Below, one piece after another: positions 321 to 43,875 of a stretch of DNA of 64,000 bases. The notes beneath the pieces were generated by a model. That model was given only the letters and a program-made list of their open reading frames with translations. It searched no databases and was not told where the DNA came from. The DNA comes from a virus. The stretch covers positions 1 to 64,000 of IMG/VR virus record IMGVR_UViG_3300007609_000005. One strand, given 5' to 3'. A program made the translations under genes and the position numbers. Within the stretch, counting starts at the first letter, position 1. Each line of letters opens with the position of its first letter.

Positions 321-376
321 TTTAATATTTACCACATTTGTATAAACAAATGATCATAATATCAATATATAAGAAT

Positions 377-436
377 ATGAGCCAGACCCAGACTCACATA
401 CAACAATTGCAACAACAATTCGACACGAAAGGTTGA
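377..436 (+). CDS. Gln-rich attenuator leader peptide MSQTQTHIQQLQQQFDTKG
   Basis: 7 of 19 codons are Gln; lies upstream of the HAD-glnS operon and is followed by a terminator. Confidence 0.85.
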   Translation: MSQTQTHIQQLQQQFDTKG

Positions 437-461
437 ATGAAATGGGTATTGTTGTATATCC

Positions 462-495
462 AACCCATTCGACCTAACAGTTGAATGGGTTTTTT
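462..495 (+). terminator. attenuator terminator upstream of HAD/glnS
   Basis: AACCCATTCGAC-ctaaca-GTTGAATGGGTT hairpin followed by a T run; AATGGGT (441-447) is an alternative partner for ACCCATT (463-469). Confidence 0.85.
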
Positions 496-511
496 AGTCT
501 CATGAAATATA

Positions 512-961
512 ATGAAAGTGAAAACAGTACTACTTGATTTTGATGGTGTTATGGTTAAAAACCAACCTTGGAAAGTTATCCAAAGAGAAAGTGATGGGTT
601 TTACAGTTTTGACAAGAGTGCATTAAAACACCTTAAGCAAATACTAAATGAAACCAGAGCAATGATAACACTGATAACAACACACAAAACCAAATATACT
701 GATGAACAATGGGAAGAGATATTTAGAAGACGAGGAATTCAATGTAGAATAAAAAAGGCAAAAGAATTCGATTCAAGAATCGATGAAGTCGAAAATTGGT
801 ATAAAACAAGACCAACCGATCAATTTGTGATATTGGATGATGATAAGTCATTGAATGACCTAAGAAGTGAAATAAAAGAAAGGTTTGTTCTGATTGAATC
901 AGGAATCGGATTAACAAAAGAAAAAACAGAATTAGCAATAAAAATATTAAACGAAAAATGA
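512..961 (+). CDS. HAD-family phosphatase (RNA-repair-associated type)
   Basis: N-terminal LLDFDGV (DxDG) and FVILDDD motifs. Confidence 0.8.
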   Translation: MKVKTVLLDFDGVMVKNQPWKVIQRESDGFYSFDKSALKHLKQILNETRAMITLITTHKTKYTDEQWEEIFRRRGIQCRIKKAKEFDSRIDEVENWYKTRPTDQFVILDDDKSLNDLRSEIKERFVLIESGIGLTKEKTELAIKILNEK

Positions 962-2526
962 ATTTTATAGAAGAAAAAATAATTAACAAAAACAGAACGG
1001 AAAATATGGTACTTCGTTTTCCACCCGAACCAAATGGACACCTACACTTGGGTCATGCAAAATCACTATGTCTAAACTTTGGACTTGCAGAGAAATATGG
1101 TGGAAAGTGCATTTTGAGGTTTGACGATACCAACCCTGCAAAAGAATCAAATGAATATGTAAATTCAATGATCGAGGATGTTGAGTGGTTGGGTTTCACG
1201 CCTGACAAGATATCATACACATCCGATTACTTTGATGAGATATACGAATGTGCCTTAACATTGATAAGTAAAGGATTAGCATATGTCGACCACTCAACTT
1301 CTGAAGAAATTGCTGAGATGAAGGGAACACCAACAACACCAGGTAAGAACTCACCATATCGTAACAATTCCATAGATGAAAACACATATCTTTTCAAAAA
1401 GATGAGAAATGGGGGATACGGTGATAAAAAAGTTGTTCTCCGTGCAAAAATTGATATGGAAAGTCCCAATATGATATTGAGAGACCCCATCCTATACCGA
1501 ATGATCAATAAACCACATCATCGAACAGGAAATTATTGGTGTATCTACCCAATGTATGATATGGCACATCCCTTATGTGATTATTTCGAAGGTATTACAG
1601 ATTCCCTTTGTACATTGGAATTTGAAGTACATAGACCATTATATAATTGGATATTGAACAATTCAGACCTCGTGGGTAACTTACCAGAGGAAACTGAGTT
1701 TTCCCGATTGAATGTCAATGGACATGTTATGAGCAAAAGGATATTCAATGGTCTGATCGATGAAAATAAAGTAGAAGGATGGAATGACCCAAGGTTATTA
1801 ACTATCAAGGGCTTGAAGAAAAGGGGATTCACACCTGAATCCATAAAGGATTTCTGTGATCGGGTGGGTGTTTCAAAACGTGAGGCATCCATTGATGTAG
1901 AATTATTGGAAGAGTGTCTTAGAATTGAATTAAACAAGTCCTCTGACCGTGTTATGGGTGTATTCGACCCGATCAAACTAACCATTTCCAATTGGGAAAG
2001 TGGTACTGAAATGGTAACCATCGAAAATAACCCCGGAGACGAAACAAAGGGTACAAGAGAAGTTCCATTCTCAGGAAATATATTCATTGAACGAGATGAT
2101 TTCAGAGAAGAAGCCAACCGAAAATACCACAGACTTAAACTTGGACACGAAGTTAGGTTAAAGGGTGCATACATAATTAAGGCAGAGTCTGTTATCAAAG
2201 ATAAAAATGGCGATGTCACTGAGGTCATATGCACATATGACCCAGAAACTCGTTCAGGGAACTGCGATAGAAAAATCAAGGGAACCATCCATTGGGTTTC
2301 AAGTGATGACTGTATAAAAATTCCTACATATTCATACGGAACCCCATTCATTGATAATGAATTCAATGAGGATTCCGAATTGATAAACAACAACTCAGTA
2401 TTTGAACCAAGAGTTCTTGAAATAGAAAATGGAGTAAGTGTTCAAATGATGAGGAAGGGTTATTATGTCAAAGATAATGATCGATTTATAAAGACTGTGG
2501 ATCTGAGATCATCATTCAAAATATAA
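958..2526 (+). CDS. glnS: glutaminyl-tRNA synthetase
   Basis: RFPPEPNGHLHLGHAKS (HIGH), LRFDDTNP, WCIYPMYD, LCTLEF, VMSKR (KMSKS equivalent), KGTIHWVS. Confidence 0.96.
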   Translation: MNFIEEKIINKNRTENMVLRFPPEPNGHLHLGHAKSLCLNFGLAEKYGGKCILRFDDTNPAKESNEYVNSMIEDVEWLGFTPDKISYTSDYFDEIYECALTLISKGLAYVDHSTSEEIAEMKGTPTTPGKNSPYRNNSIDENTYLFKKMRNGGYGDKKVVLRAKIDMESPNMILRDPILYRMINKPHHRTGNYWCIYPMYDMAHPLCDYFEGITDSLCTLEFEVHRPLYNWILNNSDLVGNLPEETEFSRLNVNGHVMSKRIFNGLIDENKVEGWNDPRLLTIKGLKKRGFTPESIKDFCDRVGVSKREASIDVELLEECLRIELNKSSDRVMGVFDPIKLTISNWESGTEMVTIENNPGDETKGTREVPFSGNIFIERDDFREEANRKYHRLKLGHEVRLKGAYIIKAESVIKDKNGDVTEVICTYDPETRSGNCDRKIKGTIHWVSSDDCIKIPTYSYGTPFIDNEFNEDSELINNNSVFEPRVLEIENGVSVQMMRKGYYVKDNDRFIKTVDLRSSFKI

Positions 2527-8950: not shown

Positions 8951-10117
8951 TTAAAAACTAACCGGAAACGGAATAACATCATGAACTTTCGGTGCTTTTG
9001 TTATAAACATCAACAACCTCTCAAAGCCCAATCCGAATCCAGAATGCGGGACTGATCCCCATCTACGTGTTTCAGTGTACCATTTCATCTTATCCATGTC
9101 CATGCCTTCCATTGAATCTAATAACTTTTCATAATCTTCTTCTCTTTGCGAACCTCCAATCAACTCACCAACTTCCGGAAAGATAAGGTCAAAACAAAGA
9201 GCATACCTATCATCTTTCTTCATATAGAATGGTTTCAACTCTTTTGGATAATGAGTAATGAAAGTTGGTCCCCATTTTTCTGTTATTGATTTTTCAACTT
9301 CTGAGGATATATCCTCACCCCATTTGAAGCCGAACTCTTCTTGAATTTCATCATACTTTTTAATAACCCAAGGTTTTGATGTGTCAATAATATCATCGAG
9401 GTGTGAAGTGTCTTTTAATTCCTTCATAGAACCTCTTATAATAGACTTAACAAAGTCTTCAGCGAACCCAATTGTATCATCGAGGGCATACCAAGCAAAT
9501 TCCGGTTCAACCATCCAGAATTCAGATAAATGCTTTCTAGTGGCTGATTTTTCTGCTCTGAACGTTGGTCCAAATGTATAGATTTGCCCAAGTGCCATCA
9601 TCCCTACTTCACCATGTAATTGACCCGAAACAGTTAATTGTTCTTCCATCCAATCAGATGAAACTTTAAAAGTTTCACCAGCACCTTCGCAATCAGCATG
9701 TGTAATTATAGGTGTATGGTATTGATAAACACCCATTTCATCCATATATCGGTGAATTGCCTGTGTAAGATGGTGACGTGTTCTTAAAATTTCTTGAAAT
9801 TGTCTGGCTCTACCACGAAGATGTGGAATAGAACGGAAGAACTCATCTGAATGTTTTTTAGGTTGTAGTGGATATTCATCATCAGCATCACCAATGATTG
9901 TTACTTTGCTTGCAACAATTTCCGGAAATCCTCTTGGTGTAACTCCTTCTTCACCTTCAACTATTACAGATGCTCCTATTTTCAATTCCCCTTTAACATC
10001 ACAAAGCTCTTCTTTGATTGTTATTTGATGATCTTCTGTTCCATCTGTTACGGGAACGAACTTGATTGATTTTGATCTACGGATACTTTTTATCCATCCT
10101 TTTACTTCTCTTTTCAT
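8951..10117 (-). CDS. asnS: asparaginyl-tRNA synthetase
   Basis: LTVSGQLHGE, FGPTFRAEKS..RKHLSEFWMVEPE (motif 2), GELIGGSQRE, PHSGFGLGFER (motif 3). Confidence 0.95.
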   Translation of the reverse strand: MKREVKGWIKSIRRSKSIKFVPVTDGTEDHQITIKEELCDVKGELKIGASVIVEGEEGVTPRGFPEIVASKVTIIGDADDEYPLQPKKHSDEFFRSIPHLRGRARQFQEILRTRHHLTQAIHRYMDEMGVYQYHTPIITHADCEGAGETFKVSSDWMEEQLTVSGQLHGEVGMMALGQIYTFGPTFRAEKSATRKHLSEFWMVEPEFAWYALDDTIGFAEDFVKSIIRGSMKELKDTSHLDDIIDTSKPWVIKKYDEIQEEFGFKWGEDISSEVEKSITEKWGPTFITHYPKELKPFYMKKDDRYALCFDLIFPEVGELIGGSQREEDYEKLLDSMEGMDMDKMKWYTETRRWGSVPHSGFGLGFERLLMFITKAPKVHDVIPFPVSF

Positions 10118-10144
10118 AATTTCTCTCTTTTAATTTTTGTTAAC

Positions 10145-10176
10145 AAAAAAACCCTGTCAGTTTCCTGACAGGGTTT
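10145..10176 (-). terminator. attenuator terminator upstream of asnS
   Basis: Minus strand AAACCCTGTCAG-GAAA-CTGACAGGGTTT followed by a T run. Confidence 0.9.
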
Positions 10177-10204
10177 GCTTAATTTTTAGGCAATAATAAT
10201 CCAG

Positions 10205-10252
10205 TCAGGGTTTCCTGTTATGATTATTATTATTTATTGATAATGATTTCAT
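10205..10252 (-). CDS. Asn-rich attenuator leader peptide MKSLSINNNNHNRKP
   Basis: Four consecutive AAT plus one AAC; lies between a TAnnTTTG box (10257-10264) and the terminator before asnS. Confidence 0.85.
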   Translation of the reverse strand: MKSLSINNNNHNRKP

Positions 10253-10275
10253 TTTACAAATATAATAAAAATTTA

Positions 10276-10731
10276 TTAAGTAAATAAGTCTTTAATTAAA
10301 TTAAGTGCTTCGATATTTTCTCTGATTCTCATCCTCTTCTTAACATCAAAGTTTTCACCCTTTTCCTTTAAATCTTTTTCAAATGATTGTATAGCACTGT
10401 TACAATCATCCTCAATATTACCATTATACATGTCGTTAAATAATGCTGACATATCACCATTATAGTTACGTTTTGCTTCATCGAAAAGTCTATCATGATT
10501 ATCATCATTTTCGAAAAGGCTTCTATTATCAATGAAAAAAGACACTATACGCTTATACTTACTGTGATTCTCATCTGAAATATTTTCCCAAGCACCTTTG
10601 AAATCTCCTTTAAGTATCTTTTTAGCAGCACCCCAAAGTTTTGACATATCAACAACACCTCTAAATAATGCTGATTTAGTTCCTTCATTTGTTATGTTTT
10701 GAAAGTTTTCAAATGATTTTAAATGTTCCAT
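10276..10731 (-). CDS. hypothetical protein (N-tag)
   Basis: Starts MEHLKSFENFQNITNE. Confidence 0.7.
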   Translation of the reverse strand: MEHLKSFENFQNITNEGTKSALFRGVVDMSKLWGAAKKILKGDFKGAWENISDENHSKYKRIVSFFIDNRSLFENDDNHDRLFDEAKRNYNGDMSALFNDMYNGNIEDDCNSAIQSFEKDLKEKGENFDVKKRMRIRENIEALNLIKDLFT

Positions 10732-42735: not shown

Positions 42736-43875
42736 ATGAAAAGTATATTAACAGTAATATTTATCTTAATTTCCCAACTTTTATATGCTGGATGTGGTCC
42801 ATACGAAATTGTAGATGTTTATCCTGAGGTTGGGTCAATAGAAGTGCCAATAAATTTAACTTCAATAAAATTCATACCTGATAACCTACTATCATGTAGC
42901 ACTGCTGCAAAATTTAGAGATGGGTACTTACGAATATTTGAATCTACAACAAATCAGTTAGTTGATAGTATTGATGTAAATGATTATTACCCATATGGTT
43001 ATGAAGCACCATTTGGCGAAGAACTTATTTTTCCACTTAATACAACGTTACAATATTGTACTAATTATTATGTAACAATGGATATAGGTACTGTATATAA
43101 CCCGTGCTGTTCAAGTGGTGGGGATTTTGGGATGTATGGTCAAATTGATCCAAATACAGGGGATGGTTACTTTTGGGGAGAATGGGTAACAACACCTCAA
43201 CCACATTGGGAAGGATTTACTTGGGAATTTACAACAATAACACCGGAAATACAATTAGATGTCACCGATGCTTCTTGTTACAATTCCTGTGATGGTTCTA
43301 TCGAAATATATTCACCTTTAACCAATCAAGGACAAATTTATAATAATCATTGTCCAAATACATACTTCTTTGACCTGTCTGCAATAACATATGGATGTAT
43401 TGACAATTTTGAAGTTACTATAGATTCCCCAGATTCAATAGTTATTTATGAAACTGTTACGAATTCAAGTATTAATTTGTCTGTAAATGGAGGAATACCA
43501 CCATACCAATTTAATTGGACTGGACCAAATGGGTTTATATCAAATCAACCATATAACATAAACAATTTACAGGGCGGTATATACACATATACTATTACTG
43601 ATAATAATGGGTGTCAATCATCAAACGAAATATCTATTAGTATCATGTCCATTGAAGATATCACCCACATAAAAAATTCGGAACACATTTTATTTCCAAA
43701 TCCTTCGAAGATACAAATTAATATCAAACCAAATACTAATTATAGAATAATTGATATTTCTGGCAGAACAATATCAAAAAATTTTACAGAGAATGGGACA
43801 ATAAATGTATCACATTTGAATGGGGTGTATTATTTATTTGATAATAACCAAATTCATAAATTCATAGTTGAATAG
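42736..43875 (+). CDS. secreted protein with Ig-like/SprB-like segments and a T9SS type-A C-terminal sorting domain
   Basis: Signal peptide; VTDASC..CDGSI and GG.PPY.F.W.GPNG...G.YTYTITD.NGC; C-terminal FPNPS...IIDISGR...INVSHL.GVYYL...KFIVE. Confidence 0.8.
   Translation: MKSILTVIFILISQLLYAGCGPYEIVDVYPEVGSIEVPINLTSIKFIPDNLLSCSTAAKFRDGYLRIFESTTNQLVDSIDVNDYYPYGYEAPFGEELIFPLNTTLQYCTNYYVTMDIGTVYNPCCSSGGDFGMYGQIDPNTGDGYFWGEWVTTPQPHWEGFTWEFTTITPEIQLDVTDASCYNSCDGSIEIYSPLTNQGQIYNNHCPNTYFFDLSAITYGCIDNFEVTIDSPDSIVIYETVTNSSINLSVNGGIPPYQFNWTGPNGFISNQPYNINNLQGGIYTYTITDNNGCQSSNEISISIMSIEDITHIKNSEHILFPNPSKIQINIKPNTNYRIIDISGRTISKNFTENGTINVSHLNGVYYLFDNNQIHKFIVE

What the first reader, a model, noticed from the sequence alone, without database searches (positions are those of the whole stretch)
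8951..10264. Second, independent attenuator: Asn-rich leader upstream of AsnRS
Seen on the minus strand: a TATATTTG promoter box and a nearly leaderless ORF MKSLSINNNNHNRKP (10252-10205). The 1:2 helix is AATAATAATC/GATTATTATT over the Asn codons. The antiterminator is CCTGAC (at the leader stop) with GTCAGG. A 12-bp terminator with a GAAA loop and U tract precedes asnS. The leader amino acid matches the downstream synthetase, as it does for glnS, so chance is unlikely. Inference: paired sensors for both amide amino acids give the phage a read-out of nitrogen status or tRNA charging.
Basis: partly seen in the sequence, partly recalled or inferred. Interest (0 to 1): 0.86.

Follow-up and report, generated by a model that had tools for sequence, protein, structure and literature searches.

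The report
Asparagine-sensing switch before phage synthetase
A phage places a tiny asparagine-rich test gene and a switchable transcription stop in front of its own asparagine tRNA-charging enzyme, which itself contains no asparagine, so the enzyme is probably made exactly when charged asparagine tRNA runs short.

Summary
A 15-codon ORF (10252-10205, minus strand) holds four consecutive Asn codons plus a fifth. It starts 4 nt after a TATATTTG box. A 12-bp GAAA-loop terminator with a U tract follows, then asnS, a true AsnRS by TIGR00457. Folds with the ribosome placed at different points reproduce classical attenuator logic.

The device is not a pair of amide sensors. A blind scan of the 132-kb genome finds exactly four such units, before glnS, asnS, ileS and a ValRS-like gene, each with cognate codons. 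The LeuRS-like gene has none.

The regulated enzymes lack their own amino acid: 0 Asn in 388 residues, 0 Ile in 738, 0 Val in 442 and 1 Gln in 522.

Related huge phages carry the same design. For asnS the leader appears in 5 of 12 close loci. It was found at 0 of 28 Bacteroidia host asnS loci.

My reading is a per-amino-acid charged-tRNA feedback, not nitrogen sensing. There is no RNA or experimental evidence.

This scan has reported the same kind of device on other phage DNA. My searches found no paper describing it.

The parts
10257..10264 (-). TATATTTG box, matching the TAnnTTTG -7 element recalled for Bacteroidota promoters, 4 nt upstream of the leader ATG
   Evidence: Sequence. An ATG lies 3-4 nt after 27 of the 215 TAnnTTTG boxes in the genome, the modal spacing. 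Promoter function is inferred; no transcription start site data exist.
10205..10252 (-). Leader ORF of 15 codons plus TGA. Asn codons are at positions 7-10 (AAT x4, 10234-10223) and 12 (AAC, 10219-10217).
   Evidence: It is the only ORF of 8-30 aa in the genome with a run of four Asn (1 of 2486).
10191..10232 (-). 1:2 (anti-antiterminator) hairpin. The outer stem pairs 10232-10222 (Asn/His codons) with 10201-10191. The inner stem pairs 10217-10214 with 10209-10206.
   Evidence: This is the minimum-energy structure of the free RNA, at -14.0 kcal/mol before the terminator 3' arm is made.
10201..10209 (-). Antiterminator 5' strand: CCTGAC (10209-10204, overlapping stop codon 10207-10205) plus GG (10202-10201)
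   Evidence: With a ribosome held on Asn codons 8-10, this strand pairs with 10169-10164 and 10172-10171 of the terminator 5' arm. The structure has -10.7 to -11.9 kcal/mol and pairs 9 of the 12 arm bases. With a ribosome at the stop codon the strand is masked.
10149..10176 (-). Intrinsic terminator hairpin: 12-bp stem, GAAA loop. The T run continues to about 10142.
   Evidence: 12 pairs, 6 G-C. -20.6 kcal/mol. No TAnnTTTG box lies between it and asnS.
8951..10117 (-). asnS: asparagine--tRNA ligase, 388 aa, with no Asn residue
   Evidence: TIGR00457 scores 392.6 bits against a cut-off of 342.6. Pfam tRNA-synt_2 and the OB anticodon domain are present. The best solved relatives are AsnRS. Asn count is 0 of 388 against a proteome mean of 6.5%. 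In-frame AAT/AAC is 0 of 389 codons, against 21 and 28 in the other two frames.
377..491 (+). Sister unit: a Gln-rich 19-codon leader (377-436) and a 12-bp terminator (462-491). It lies ahead of a HAD RNA-repair-type gene (512-961) and glnS (958-2526).
   Evidence: GlnRS has 1 Gln in 522 residues. The same design is found in 8 of 10 usable IMG/VR glnS relatives.

Best explanation
This is a ribosome-mediated (leader-peptide) transcription attenuator that sets expression of the phage's own asparaginyl-tRNA synthetase according to how fast Asn codons are decoded.

Proposed steps (the sequence features are shown; the dynamics are inferred):
1. Transcription starts at or just before the leader ATG, and a ribosome loads on the near-leaderless RNA.
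2. If Asn-tRNA(Asn) is plentiful, the ribosome runs to the stop codon. There it covers CCTGAC and the bases after it, so the 12-bp terminator forms and transcription stops before asnS.
3. If no ribosome loads, the Asn codons pair with the segment after the stop codon (1:2 hairpin). This also leaves the terminator free to form.
4. If the ribosome stalls on the four AAT codons, the 1:2 hairpin cannot form. CCTGAC stays exposed and pairs with the top of the terminator 5' arm before the 3' arm is transcribed. RNA polymerase then reads through into asnS.
5. Because the AsnRS contains no Asn codon, it can be translated even when Asn-tRNA is exhausted. Its activity then restores charging and closes the loop.

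The unit is one of four such sensors in this phage (Gln, Asn, Ile, Val).
For: Anatomy is confirmed.

Folds of the RNA exposed before the terminator 3' arm emerges, as terminator 5'-arm bases paired upstream:
- no ribosome: 1:2 hairpin, 0 of 12
- ribosome on Asn codons: antiterminator, 9 of 12
- ribosome at the stop codon: 2 of 12
- 3 of 100 shuffles of the intervening segment reach 9

Across 18 such units from this and related phages:
- mean paired bases: 8.7 stalled, 2.4 at the stop, 4.9 shuffled
- stalled exceeds stop in 16 of 18
- stop-to-terminator spacing is 21-31 nt in all 18

Cognate matching:
- 4 of the 5 aaRS-type genes in this genome carry leaders with runs of their own amino acid
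- these are the only 4 hits of a blind genome scan
- 4 more units in two related phage records match the best-scoring family of the enzyme downstream
- 8 of 10 usable glnS relatives have poly-Gln leaders plus terminators
- Asn leaders plus terminators occur in two further asnS lineages

No TAnnTTTG box lies between terminator and gene in 18 of 18 units.

Cognate-free enzymes:
- 0 Asn in 388, 0 Ile in 738, 0 Val in 442 and 1 Gln in 522 residues
- the leaderless LeuRS-like gene has 23 Leu in 426
- 31 of 48 AsnRS of this family have 0 Asn
- host AsnRS average 4.9% Asn

Leader-peptide control of aaRS genes is an established mechanism (pheM-pheST and trpS2; passages read in 10.64898/2026.09.09.750475).
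Against: - There is no expression or termination data.
- At equilibrium the terminator is the minimum-energy structure in every ribosome state. It has -20.6 kcal/mol against about -11 for the antiterminator. The switch must therefore be kinetic, which is not shown.
- The antiterminator is short: 6 bp plus 2 bp.
- In the shuffle test, several of the 18 units are individually unremarkable, with up to 51 of 100 shuffles as good.
- In 9 of 18 units the antiterminator also forms with no ribosome.
- In the L119 asnS unit the stalled and stop states do not differ (6 against 6). In the W01 ileS unit they are reversed (7 against 8).
- The Asn leader is absent from 7 of the 12 close asnS loci.
- The transcription start, leaderless initiation, a polymerase pause and transcription-translation coupling in the unknown host are all inferred.
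- Only about 100 nt separate the start from the decision point.
Confidence: 0.8

Rival explanations
1. Same device, different input. The leader senses loss, cleavage or undermodification of host tRNA(Asn), for example by a tRNA-targeting defence or by phage-induced host shut-off, rather than asparagine supply. The module would then be a counter-defence or rescue circuit.
For: A leader reads decoding speed, which cannot distinguish low amino acid, low tRNA or damaged tRNA. An enzyme wholly free of its own amino acid suits near-total loss of a charged tRNA. The genome carries tRNA-repair-type genes: a T4-type RNA ligase and a CCA-adding or poly(A) polymerase head domain, and a HAD RNA-repair domain gene inside the Gln-controlled operon.
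Against: More AsnRS cannot replace a destroyed tRNA. The phage encodes only one tRNA, for Met. No defence or toxin link was tested.
Confidence: 0.3
2. One reading: the Asn and Gln leaders are a matched pair that reports nitrogen status through the two amide amino acids.
For: Both amide-amino-acid synthetases carry cognate leaders.
Against: The same design precedes ileS and a ValRS-like gene in the same genome. In relatives it precedes ileS, ValRS-like and LeuRS-like genes. Each regulated enzyme avoids only its own amino acid.
Confidence: 0.05
3. The hairpin does not terminate transcription. The leader acts on translation or RNA stability of asnS instead, for example by ribosome-dependent unmasking or processing.
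For: The sister unit before the ValRS-like gene has a poor U tract.
Against: The asnS hairpin is a textbook intrinsic terminator: 12 bp, a G+C-rich base and seven T. It ends 32 nt before the asnS ATG and does not cover the start region.
Confidence: 0.08
4. Chance. The hairpin is an ordinary terminator of the upstream gene (10731-10276), and the micro-ORF is an accident of AT-rich DNA.
For: AAT-rich strings are common at 33% G+C.
Against: Only 1 of 2486 short ORFs has a run of four Asn. The blind scan returns only the four aaRS leaders. A promoter-type box lies between the upstream gene and the leader. The design recurs in relatives with different sequences.
Confidence: 0.02

Closest known systems
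pheM-pheST (and trpS2) leader-peptide attenuators of E. coli and Salmonella
   Same: A short leader ORF rich in the cognate codon, followed by an intrinsic terminator, controls an aminoacyl-tRNA synthetase gene by ribosome stalling. I read passages on pheM and trpS2 in 10.64898/2026.09.09.750475; the remaining detail is recalled textbook knowledge.
   Different: This unit is phage-encoded and senses Asn, for which I know of no described leader. The start sits 4 nt after a Bacteroidota-type box with no Shine-Dalgarno leader. The regulated enzyme lacks the sensed amino acid. There is no sequence or Rfam relationship.
Amino-acid operon leaders (trpL, hisL, leuL, thrL, ilvL, pheL)
   Same: The logic uses the 1:2, 2:3 and 3:4 alternative pairings, with regulatory codons inside strand 1. 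Energies are similar in scale to those recalled for trp (about -11 for the antiterminator, about -20 for the terminator).
   Different: Those leaders control biosynthetic operons of bacteria. Here the antiterminator strand overlaps the stop codon. Rfam His_leader scores only 22.7 bits against a gathering score of 49.
T-box riboswitches
   Same: Functional analogue: feedback from tRNA charging to aaRS transcription through a terminator/antiterminator choice.
   Different: T-boxes bind uncharged tRNA directly and need no translation. No T-box match was found.
Predicted classical attenuators before bacterial aaRS genes (Lopatovskaya, Seliverstov and Lyubetsky 2010, Mol Biol 44:128)
   Same: By its title, a comparative-genomic prediction of attenuation for aminoacyl-tRNA biosynthesis operons.
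   Different: The paper is not held. I saw it only in the reference list of PMC4833913, so I cannot say whether asnS or Bacteroidota cases are in it. It concerns bacteria, not phages.
Earlier findings of this scan on other phage DNA (for example e1-5617988, e1-5693249, e1-5771873)
   Same: Cognate leader-peptide attenuators before phage tRNA blocks and synthetase genes. One note also says the synthetases avoid their own amino acid.
   Different: Those are AI notes on other genomes, which I did not re-check. Here the design is shown for asnS, with host controls and quantified cognate avoidance.

Membership tests
Leader-peptide (ribosome-mediated) transcription attenuator | Short translatable ORF with clustered codons of the regulating amino acid | tested here: met
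   15-codon ORF with AAT x4 plus AAC. It is unique among 2486 short ORFs.
Leader-peptide (ribosome-mediated) transcription attenuator | Intrinsic terminator between the leader ORF and the regulated gene | tested here: met
   12-bp stem, GAAA loop and T run at 10176-10142, 32 nt before asnS.
Leader-peptide (ribosome-mediated) transcription attenuator | An antiterminator that uses the terminator 5' arm and forms only when the ribosome stalls at the regulatory codons | tested here: met
   This is a prediction only. 9 of 12 arm bases are paired when stalled, against 0 with no ribosome and 2 at the stop. 3 of 100 shuffles do as well. At equilibrium the terminator always wins.
Leader-peptide (ribosome-mediated) transcription attenuator | A 1:2 pairing that involves the regulatory codons | tested here: met
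   Outer 11-bp stem plus inner 4-bp stem, -14.0 kcal/mol.
Leader-peptide (ribosome-mediated) transcription attenuator | No independent promoter between terminator and gene | tested here: inconclusive
   No TAnnTTTG box is present there. Other promoter types, such as the ATATATAA-type box seen before the sister leaders, were not ruled out by experiment.
Leader-peptide (ribosome-mediated) transcription attenuator | Amino-acid-dependent read-through in vivo or in vitro | not testable with these tools
   No RNA data are available.
Rfam leader or T-box families (His_leader RF00514 and others) | Score at or above the family's gathering threshold | tested here: not met
   No family reaches its gathering score in the window except a tRNA. 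The best weak hits are PyrR at 30.4 against 54 and His_leader at 22.7 against 49.
Asparagine--tRNA ligase (TIGR00457 asnS) | Score above the curated cut-off, with the class IIb catalytic and OB anticodon domains | tested here: met
   392.6 bits against 342.6. NF003037 scores 410.9, just under its cut-off of 414. Pfam PF00152 and PF01336 are present. Enzyme activity was not tested.

The most novel reading that the evidence does not exclude
The attenuator and the Asn-free AsnRS form one bootstrap rescue module. The sensor detects collapse of one charged tRNA species during infection, from starvation, host shut-off or a defence that attacks tRNA charging. The enzyme it releases is built to be translatable without that very aminoacyl-tRNA. 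The phage carries four such modules (Gln, Asn, Ile, Val), apparently built on one template with only the sensed codons exchanged. The template has a similar leader prefix, the run starting at about codon 6-10, an antiterminator at the stop codon and a terminator 21-31 nt later. The design is shared by a wide family of huge phages but was not found at host asnS or bacterial glnS genes.
Probability: 0.45. Interest if true: 0.9.

Novelty: new variant of a known kind. Interest (0 to 1): 0.8.

Why it matters
Phage-encoded aminoacyl-tRNA synthetases are usually listed as gene content, with no account of when or why they are used. Here the control logic can be read from the sequence. Each enzyme is gated by a sensor of its own charged tRNA, and each is written without its own amino acid. 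This predicts that these phages repair specific translation bottlenecks on demand rather than boosting translation in general.

The work offers three things:
- a compact, testable Asn-responsive switch for Bacteroidota-type expression systems;
- a clear case of selection removing one amino acid from an enzyme, including positions where 80% or more of host enzymes keep Asn;
- a handle on what limits translation in infected cells.

Tried and rejected
- **Equilibrium switch rejected.** With the full terminator present, it is the minimum-energy structure in every ribosome state. Only a kinetic, co-transcriptional reading is tenable.
- **Nitrogen-status reading rejected** (see rival explanations).
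- **Host origin of the leader not found.**
  - Bacteroidia asnS: 31 loci were fetched and 2 had too little upstream sequence. Of the 29 scanned, 0 had an Asn-rich ORF plus a terminator. Dropping L166, which comes from unpublished genome G104, gives 0 of 28. Two loci had ORFs with 3 Asn in 8 residues but no terminator.
  - Metagenome asnS: of 76 scanned loci (80 fetched, at most 43% identity), 0 had 4 or more Asn in 8 residues.
  - Bacterial glnS: of 22 scanned loci (24 fetched), 0 had a Gln-rich leader.
- **Known RNA families.** None reached threshold.
- **Other scans.** The viral-contig scan with IleRS found nothing.
- **RNA evidence.** No RNA holder was listed.
- **Literature.** Nine searches were made. 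By their listings, none returned a paper on leader-peptide control of phage synthetases or on synthetases lacking their cognate amino acid. I read passages of only two papers. Lopatovskaya et al. 2010 is not held.
Full report
**The observation**

All features lie on the minus strand.
- The upstream gene ends at 10276.
- A TATATTTG box lies at 10264-10257.
- Four bases later an ATG (10252) opens a 15-codon ORF that ends with TGA at 10207-10205.
- Codons 7-10 are AAT x4 and codon 12 is AAC.
- A 12-bp hairpin with a GAAA loop (10176-10149) is followed by a T run.
- The asnS ATG lies 32 nt further on (10117).

The 158-nt intergenic RNA folds at -39.1 kcal/mol, against -19.1 +/- 3.2 for 200 shuffles (z = -6.2). 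The fold contains both the terminator and a two-part hairpin. In that hairpin the Asn/His codons pair with the bases just after the stop codon.

The downstream gene is a true AsnRS.
- TIGR00457 scores 392.6 bits against a cut-off of 342.6.
- The class II catalytic domain and the OB anticodon domain are present.
- The best solved relatives are AsnRS.

**Is it chance?**

The window belongs to a 132,459-bp single-contig virus record.
- Of 2486 ATG ORFs of 8-30 aa on both strands, one has a run of four Asn, and it is this leader.
- I then scanned the whole genome blind. The target was any ORF of 6-40 aa with a triple run of any amino acid, ending 5 nt inside to 70 nt before a hairpin of 9 bp or more. 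Of 79 such hairpins, exactly four qualify.
- All four lie directly upstream of aminoacyl-tRNA synthetase genes.

**The genome-wide picture**

The genome has five synthetase-type genes.

| Gene | Position (genome) | Length | Family call |
|---|---|---|---|
| glnS | 958-2526 | 522 aa | TIGR00440, 612 bits |
| asnS | 10117-8951 | 388 aa | TIGR00457, 392.6 bits |
| ValRS-like | 68038-69366 | 442 aa | best models valS, below cut-offs |
| LeuRS-like | 73443-74723 | 426 aa | leuS_bact, 417.6 bits, below cut-off |
| ileS | 97271-95055 | 738 aa | TIGR00392, 690.6 bits against 621.4 |

- Four of the five are preceded by a leader whose run matches the enzyme: Gln, Asn, Ile and Val.
- The LeuRS-like gene has no leader. 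A TATATTTG box sits 4 nt before its ATG.
- The device is therefore not specific to the two amide amino acids.

**Enzymes without their own amino acid**

I tested this here, against 122 ORFs of 150 aa or more.

| Enzyme | Own amino acid | Proteome mean |
|---|---|---|
| AsnRS | 0 Asn in 388 | 6.5% |
| IleRS | 0 Ile in 738 | 8.0% |
| ValRS-like | 0 Val in 442 | 5.5% |
| GlnRS | 1 Gln in 522 | 2.6% |
| LeuRS-like (no leader) | 23 Leu in 426 | 7.8% |

- In asnS, AAT/AAC occurs 0 times in 389 in-frame codons, but 21 and 28 times in the other two frames.
- Zero Asn in 388 draws at the proteome mean would have a probability of about 5 x 10^-12 (my arithmetic).
- At the five alignment columns where at least 80% of 28 host AsnRS have Asn, the phage enzyme has T, R, K, A and K.
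- Host Bacteroidia AsnRS average 4.9% Asn, range 3.1-6.5%.
- Of 48 aligned members of the roughly 390-aa phage-type AsnRS family, 31 have no Asn and the maximum is 5.
- In relatives, an IleRS has 0 Ile in 735 residues. Two ValRS-like enzymes have 0 Val in 443 and 450. Eleven GlnRS have 1-4 Gln.

**Relatives**

*asnS*. Of 24 viral loci, 23 had enough upstream sequence.
- Five carry an Asn-rich leader plus a terminator: L001 (LR745206.1, a 635-kb uncultured phage) and L119-L122 (four contigs with one shared leader peptide).
- All five are among the 12 loci with at least 51% identity.
- The leader is absent from L112, L116, L117, L118, L123, L124 and L125, and from all 11 loci at 42% identity or less.
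- In all three leader lineages the Asn run begins at codon 7. The AsnRS has exactly 0 Asn in each.

*glnS*. Eight of 10 usable IMG/VR relatives have a poly-Gln leader followed 20-30 nt later by a 12-15-bp terminator.

*Class I enzymes in four related records*. Four of 9 usable loci have a leader plus terminator.
- In each case the run (Ile, Val, Val, Leu) matches the best-scoring family of the enzyme.
- The ValRS-like and LeuRS-like scores are below the curated cut-offs.
- Five loci have no leader.

**Hosts**

No such leader was found at:
- 28 Bacteroidia asnS loci (one locus dropped);
- 76 metagenomic asnS loci at 43% identity or less;
- 22 bacterial glnS loci.

These are samples. The correct statement is "not found in those searched".

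**Mechanism**

I folded the RNA that is exposed before the terminator 3' arm is made, masking a 28-nt ribosome footprint.
- **No ribosome.** The 1:2 hairpin forms (-14.0 kcal/mol). None of the 12 bases of the terminator 5' arm is engaged.
- **A site on Asn codons 8-10.** The minimum-energy structure is the antiterminator: CCTGAC with GTCAGG, GG with CC, and a small inner hairpin. It has -10.7 to -11.9 kcal/mol and engages 9 of 12 arm bases.
- **Ribosome at the stop codon.** The antiterminator strand is covered, and 2 of 12 bases are engaged.
- **Control.** Three of 100 shuffles of the intervening segment reach 9.

Across the 18 units:
- The means are 8.7 (stalled), 2.4 (stop), 5.4 (no ribosome) and 4.9 (shuffled).
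- Stalled exceeds stop in 16 of 18, with one tie (L119 asnS) and one reversal (W01 ileS).
- The distance from stop codon to terminator is 21-31 nt in all 18.
- No TAnnTTTG box lies between terminator and gene in any of them.

Caveats:
- At equilibrium the terminator (-20.6 kcal/mol) wins in every state, so the switch must be kinetic.
- The transcription start, leaderless initiation, a polymerase pause and coupling are inferred.
- An ATG 3-4 nt after a TAnnTTTG box is the modal arrangement in this genome: 27 of 215 boxes.

**What it senses**

A leader reads the speed of decoding Asn codons. That speed combines amino-acid supply, tRNA(Asn) abundance, charging and modification.
- The phage has only one tRNA gene, for Met, so it relies on host tRNA(Asn).
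- An AsnRS with no Asn codon can still be made when Asn-tRNA is exhausted. This fits a rescue role.
- The genome also encodes a T4-type RNA ligase and a CCA-adding or poly(A) polymerase head domain.
- A HAD domain of RNA-repair proteins lies inside the Gln-controlled operon.
- This makes a response to tRNA damage conceivable, but it was not tested.

**Comparison with what is known**

- It works like the classical leader-peptide attenuators. It is closest to pheM-pheST and trpS2, which control synthetase genes (passages read).
- It matches no Rfam family and is not a T-box.
- Nine literature searches were made. By their listings, none returned a paper on such control of phage synthetases or on synthetases free of their cognate amino acid.
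- A 2010 comparative paper on attenuation of aminoacyl-tRNA operons in bacteria could not be read.
- This scan has already reported the same kind of device on other phage DNA: 20 notes in at least 18 genomes. First-reader notes on this genome flag the ileS and valS units.

**Verdict**

- The attenuator interpretation is supported at about 0.8 confidence.
- The nitrogen-status inference is not supported.
- It is a new variant of a known kind. Its most striking aspect is the pairing of a cognate sensor with a cognate-free enzyme.

Noticed in passing
window 340-376; genome 97440-97428 and 67870-67886 (outside the window); loci L195, L196, L197, L102, L108: Most sister leaders are preceded not by TAnnTTTG but by an ATATATAA-type box 5-9 nt before the leader ATG. 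This may be a phage-specific promoter class. The asnS leader is the one in this genome with a host-type TATATTTG box, so it may belong to a different temporal class.
   Followed up: partly
genome 73443-74723 (outside the window); L197: The 426-aa LeuRS-like gene has no leader and ordinary Leu content, 23 of 426. Its relative in LR745206.1 has a leader with a triple Leu run plus a terminator, yet still has 18 Leu in 422 residues. Leader and cognate avoidance are therefore not always coupled.
   Followed up: partly
L116 1150-1230: In a 508-kb phage whose AsnRS is 65% identical there is no terminator. An Asn-rich ORF in another frame overlaps the asnS start codon. This could be a different, translational form of Asn sensing, or chance.
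   Followed up: no
L001 1238-1311; L116 968-1041: A tRNA-Arg(CCT) gene lies just upstream of asnS in two related phages. The asnS leaders of the window and of L001 both contain an AGG codon directly after an AAC codon.
   Followed up: no
L211 (G008:C1, around 83567): A 484-aa class I synthetase-like ORF has only 2 Met, counting the start. It may be a Met-avoiding MetRS-like enzyme. No leader was seen upstream, and its family was not determined.
   Followed up: no
L101 and L105, about 800-1200 nt upstream of glnS: A second conserved leader-like ORF of 32 codons, followed by a 12-13-bp terminator, lies upstream of the poly-Gln unit. Its regulatory amino acid and its target are unclear.
   Followed up: no
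leaders of the 18 units: Leaders that sense different amino acids share a similar start: Met, then Lys or Thr, then small or hydrophobic residues. The run begins at codon 6-10. The terminators often share AAACCC...GGGTTT ends. This suggests one template diversified by exchanging the sensed codons.
   Followed up: partly
window 958-2526 and L101-L111: GlnRS keeps exactly one Gln in this phage and in 8 of 11 relatives. That residue is probably indispensable. Its position was not mapped.
   Followed up: no
window 42736-43875: A protein carries a type IX secretion C-terminal sorting domain and an SprB repeat. Together with the TAnnTTTG boxes, this points to a Bacteroidota host.
   Followed up: no
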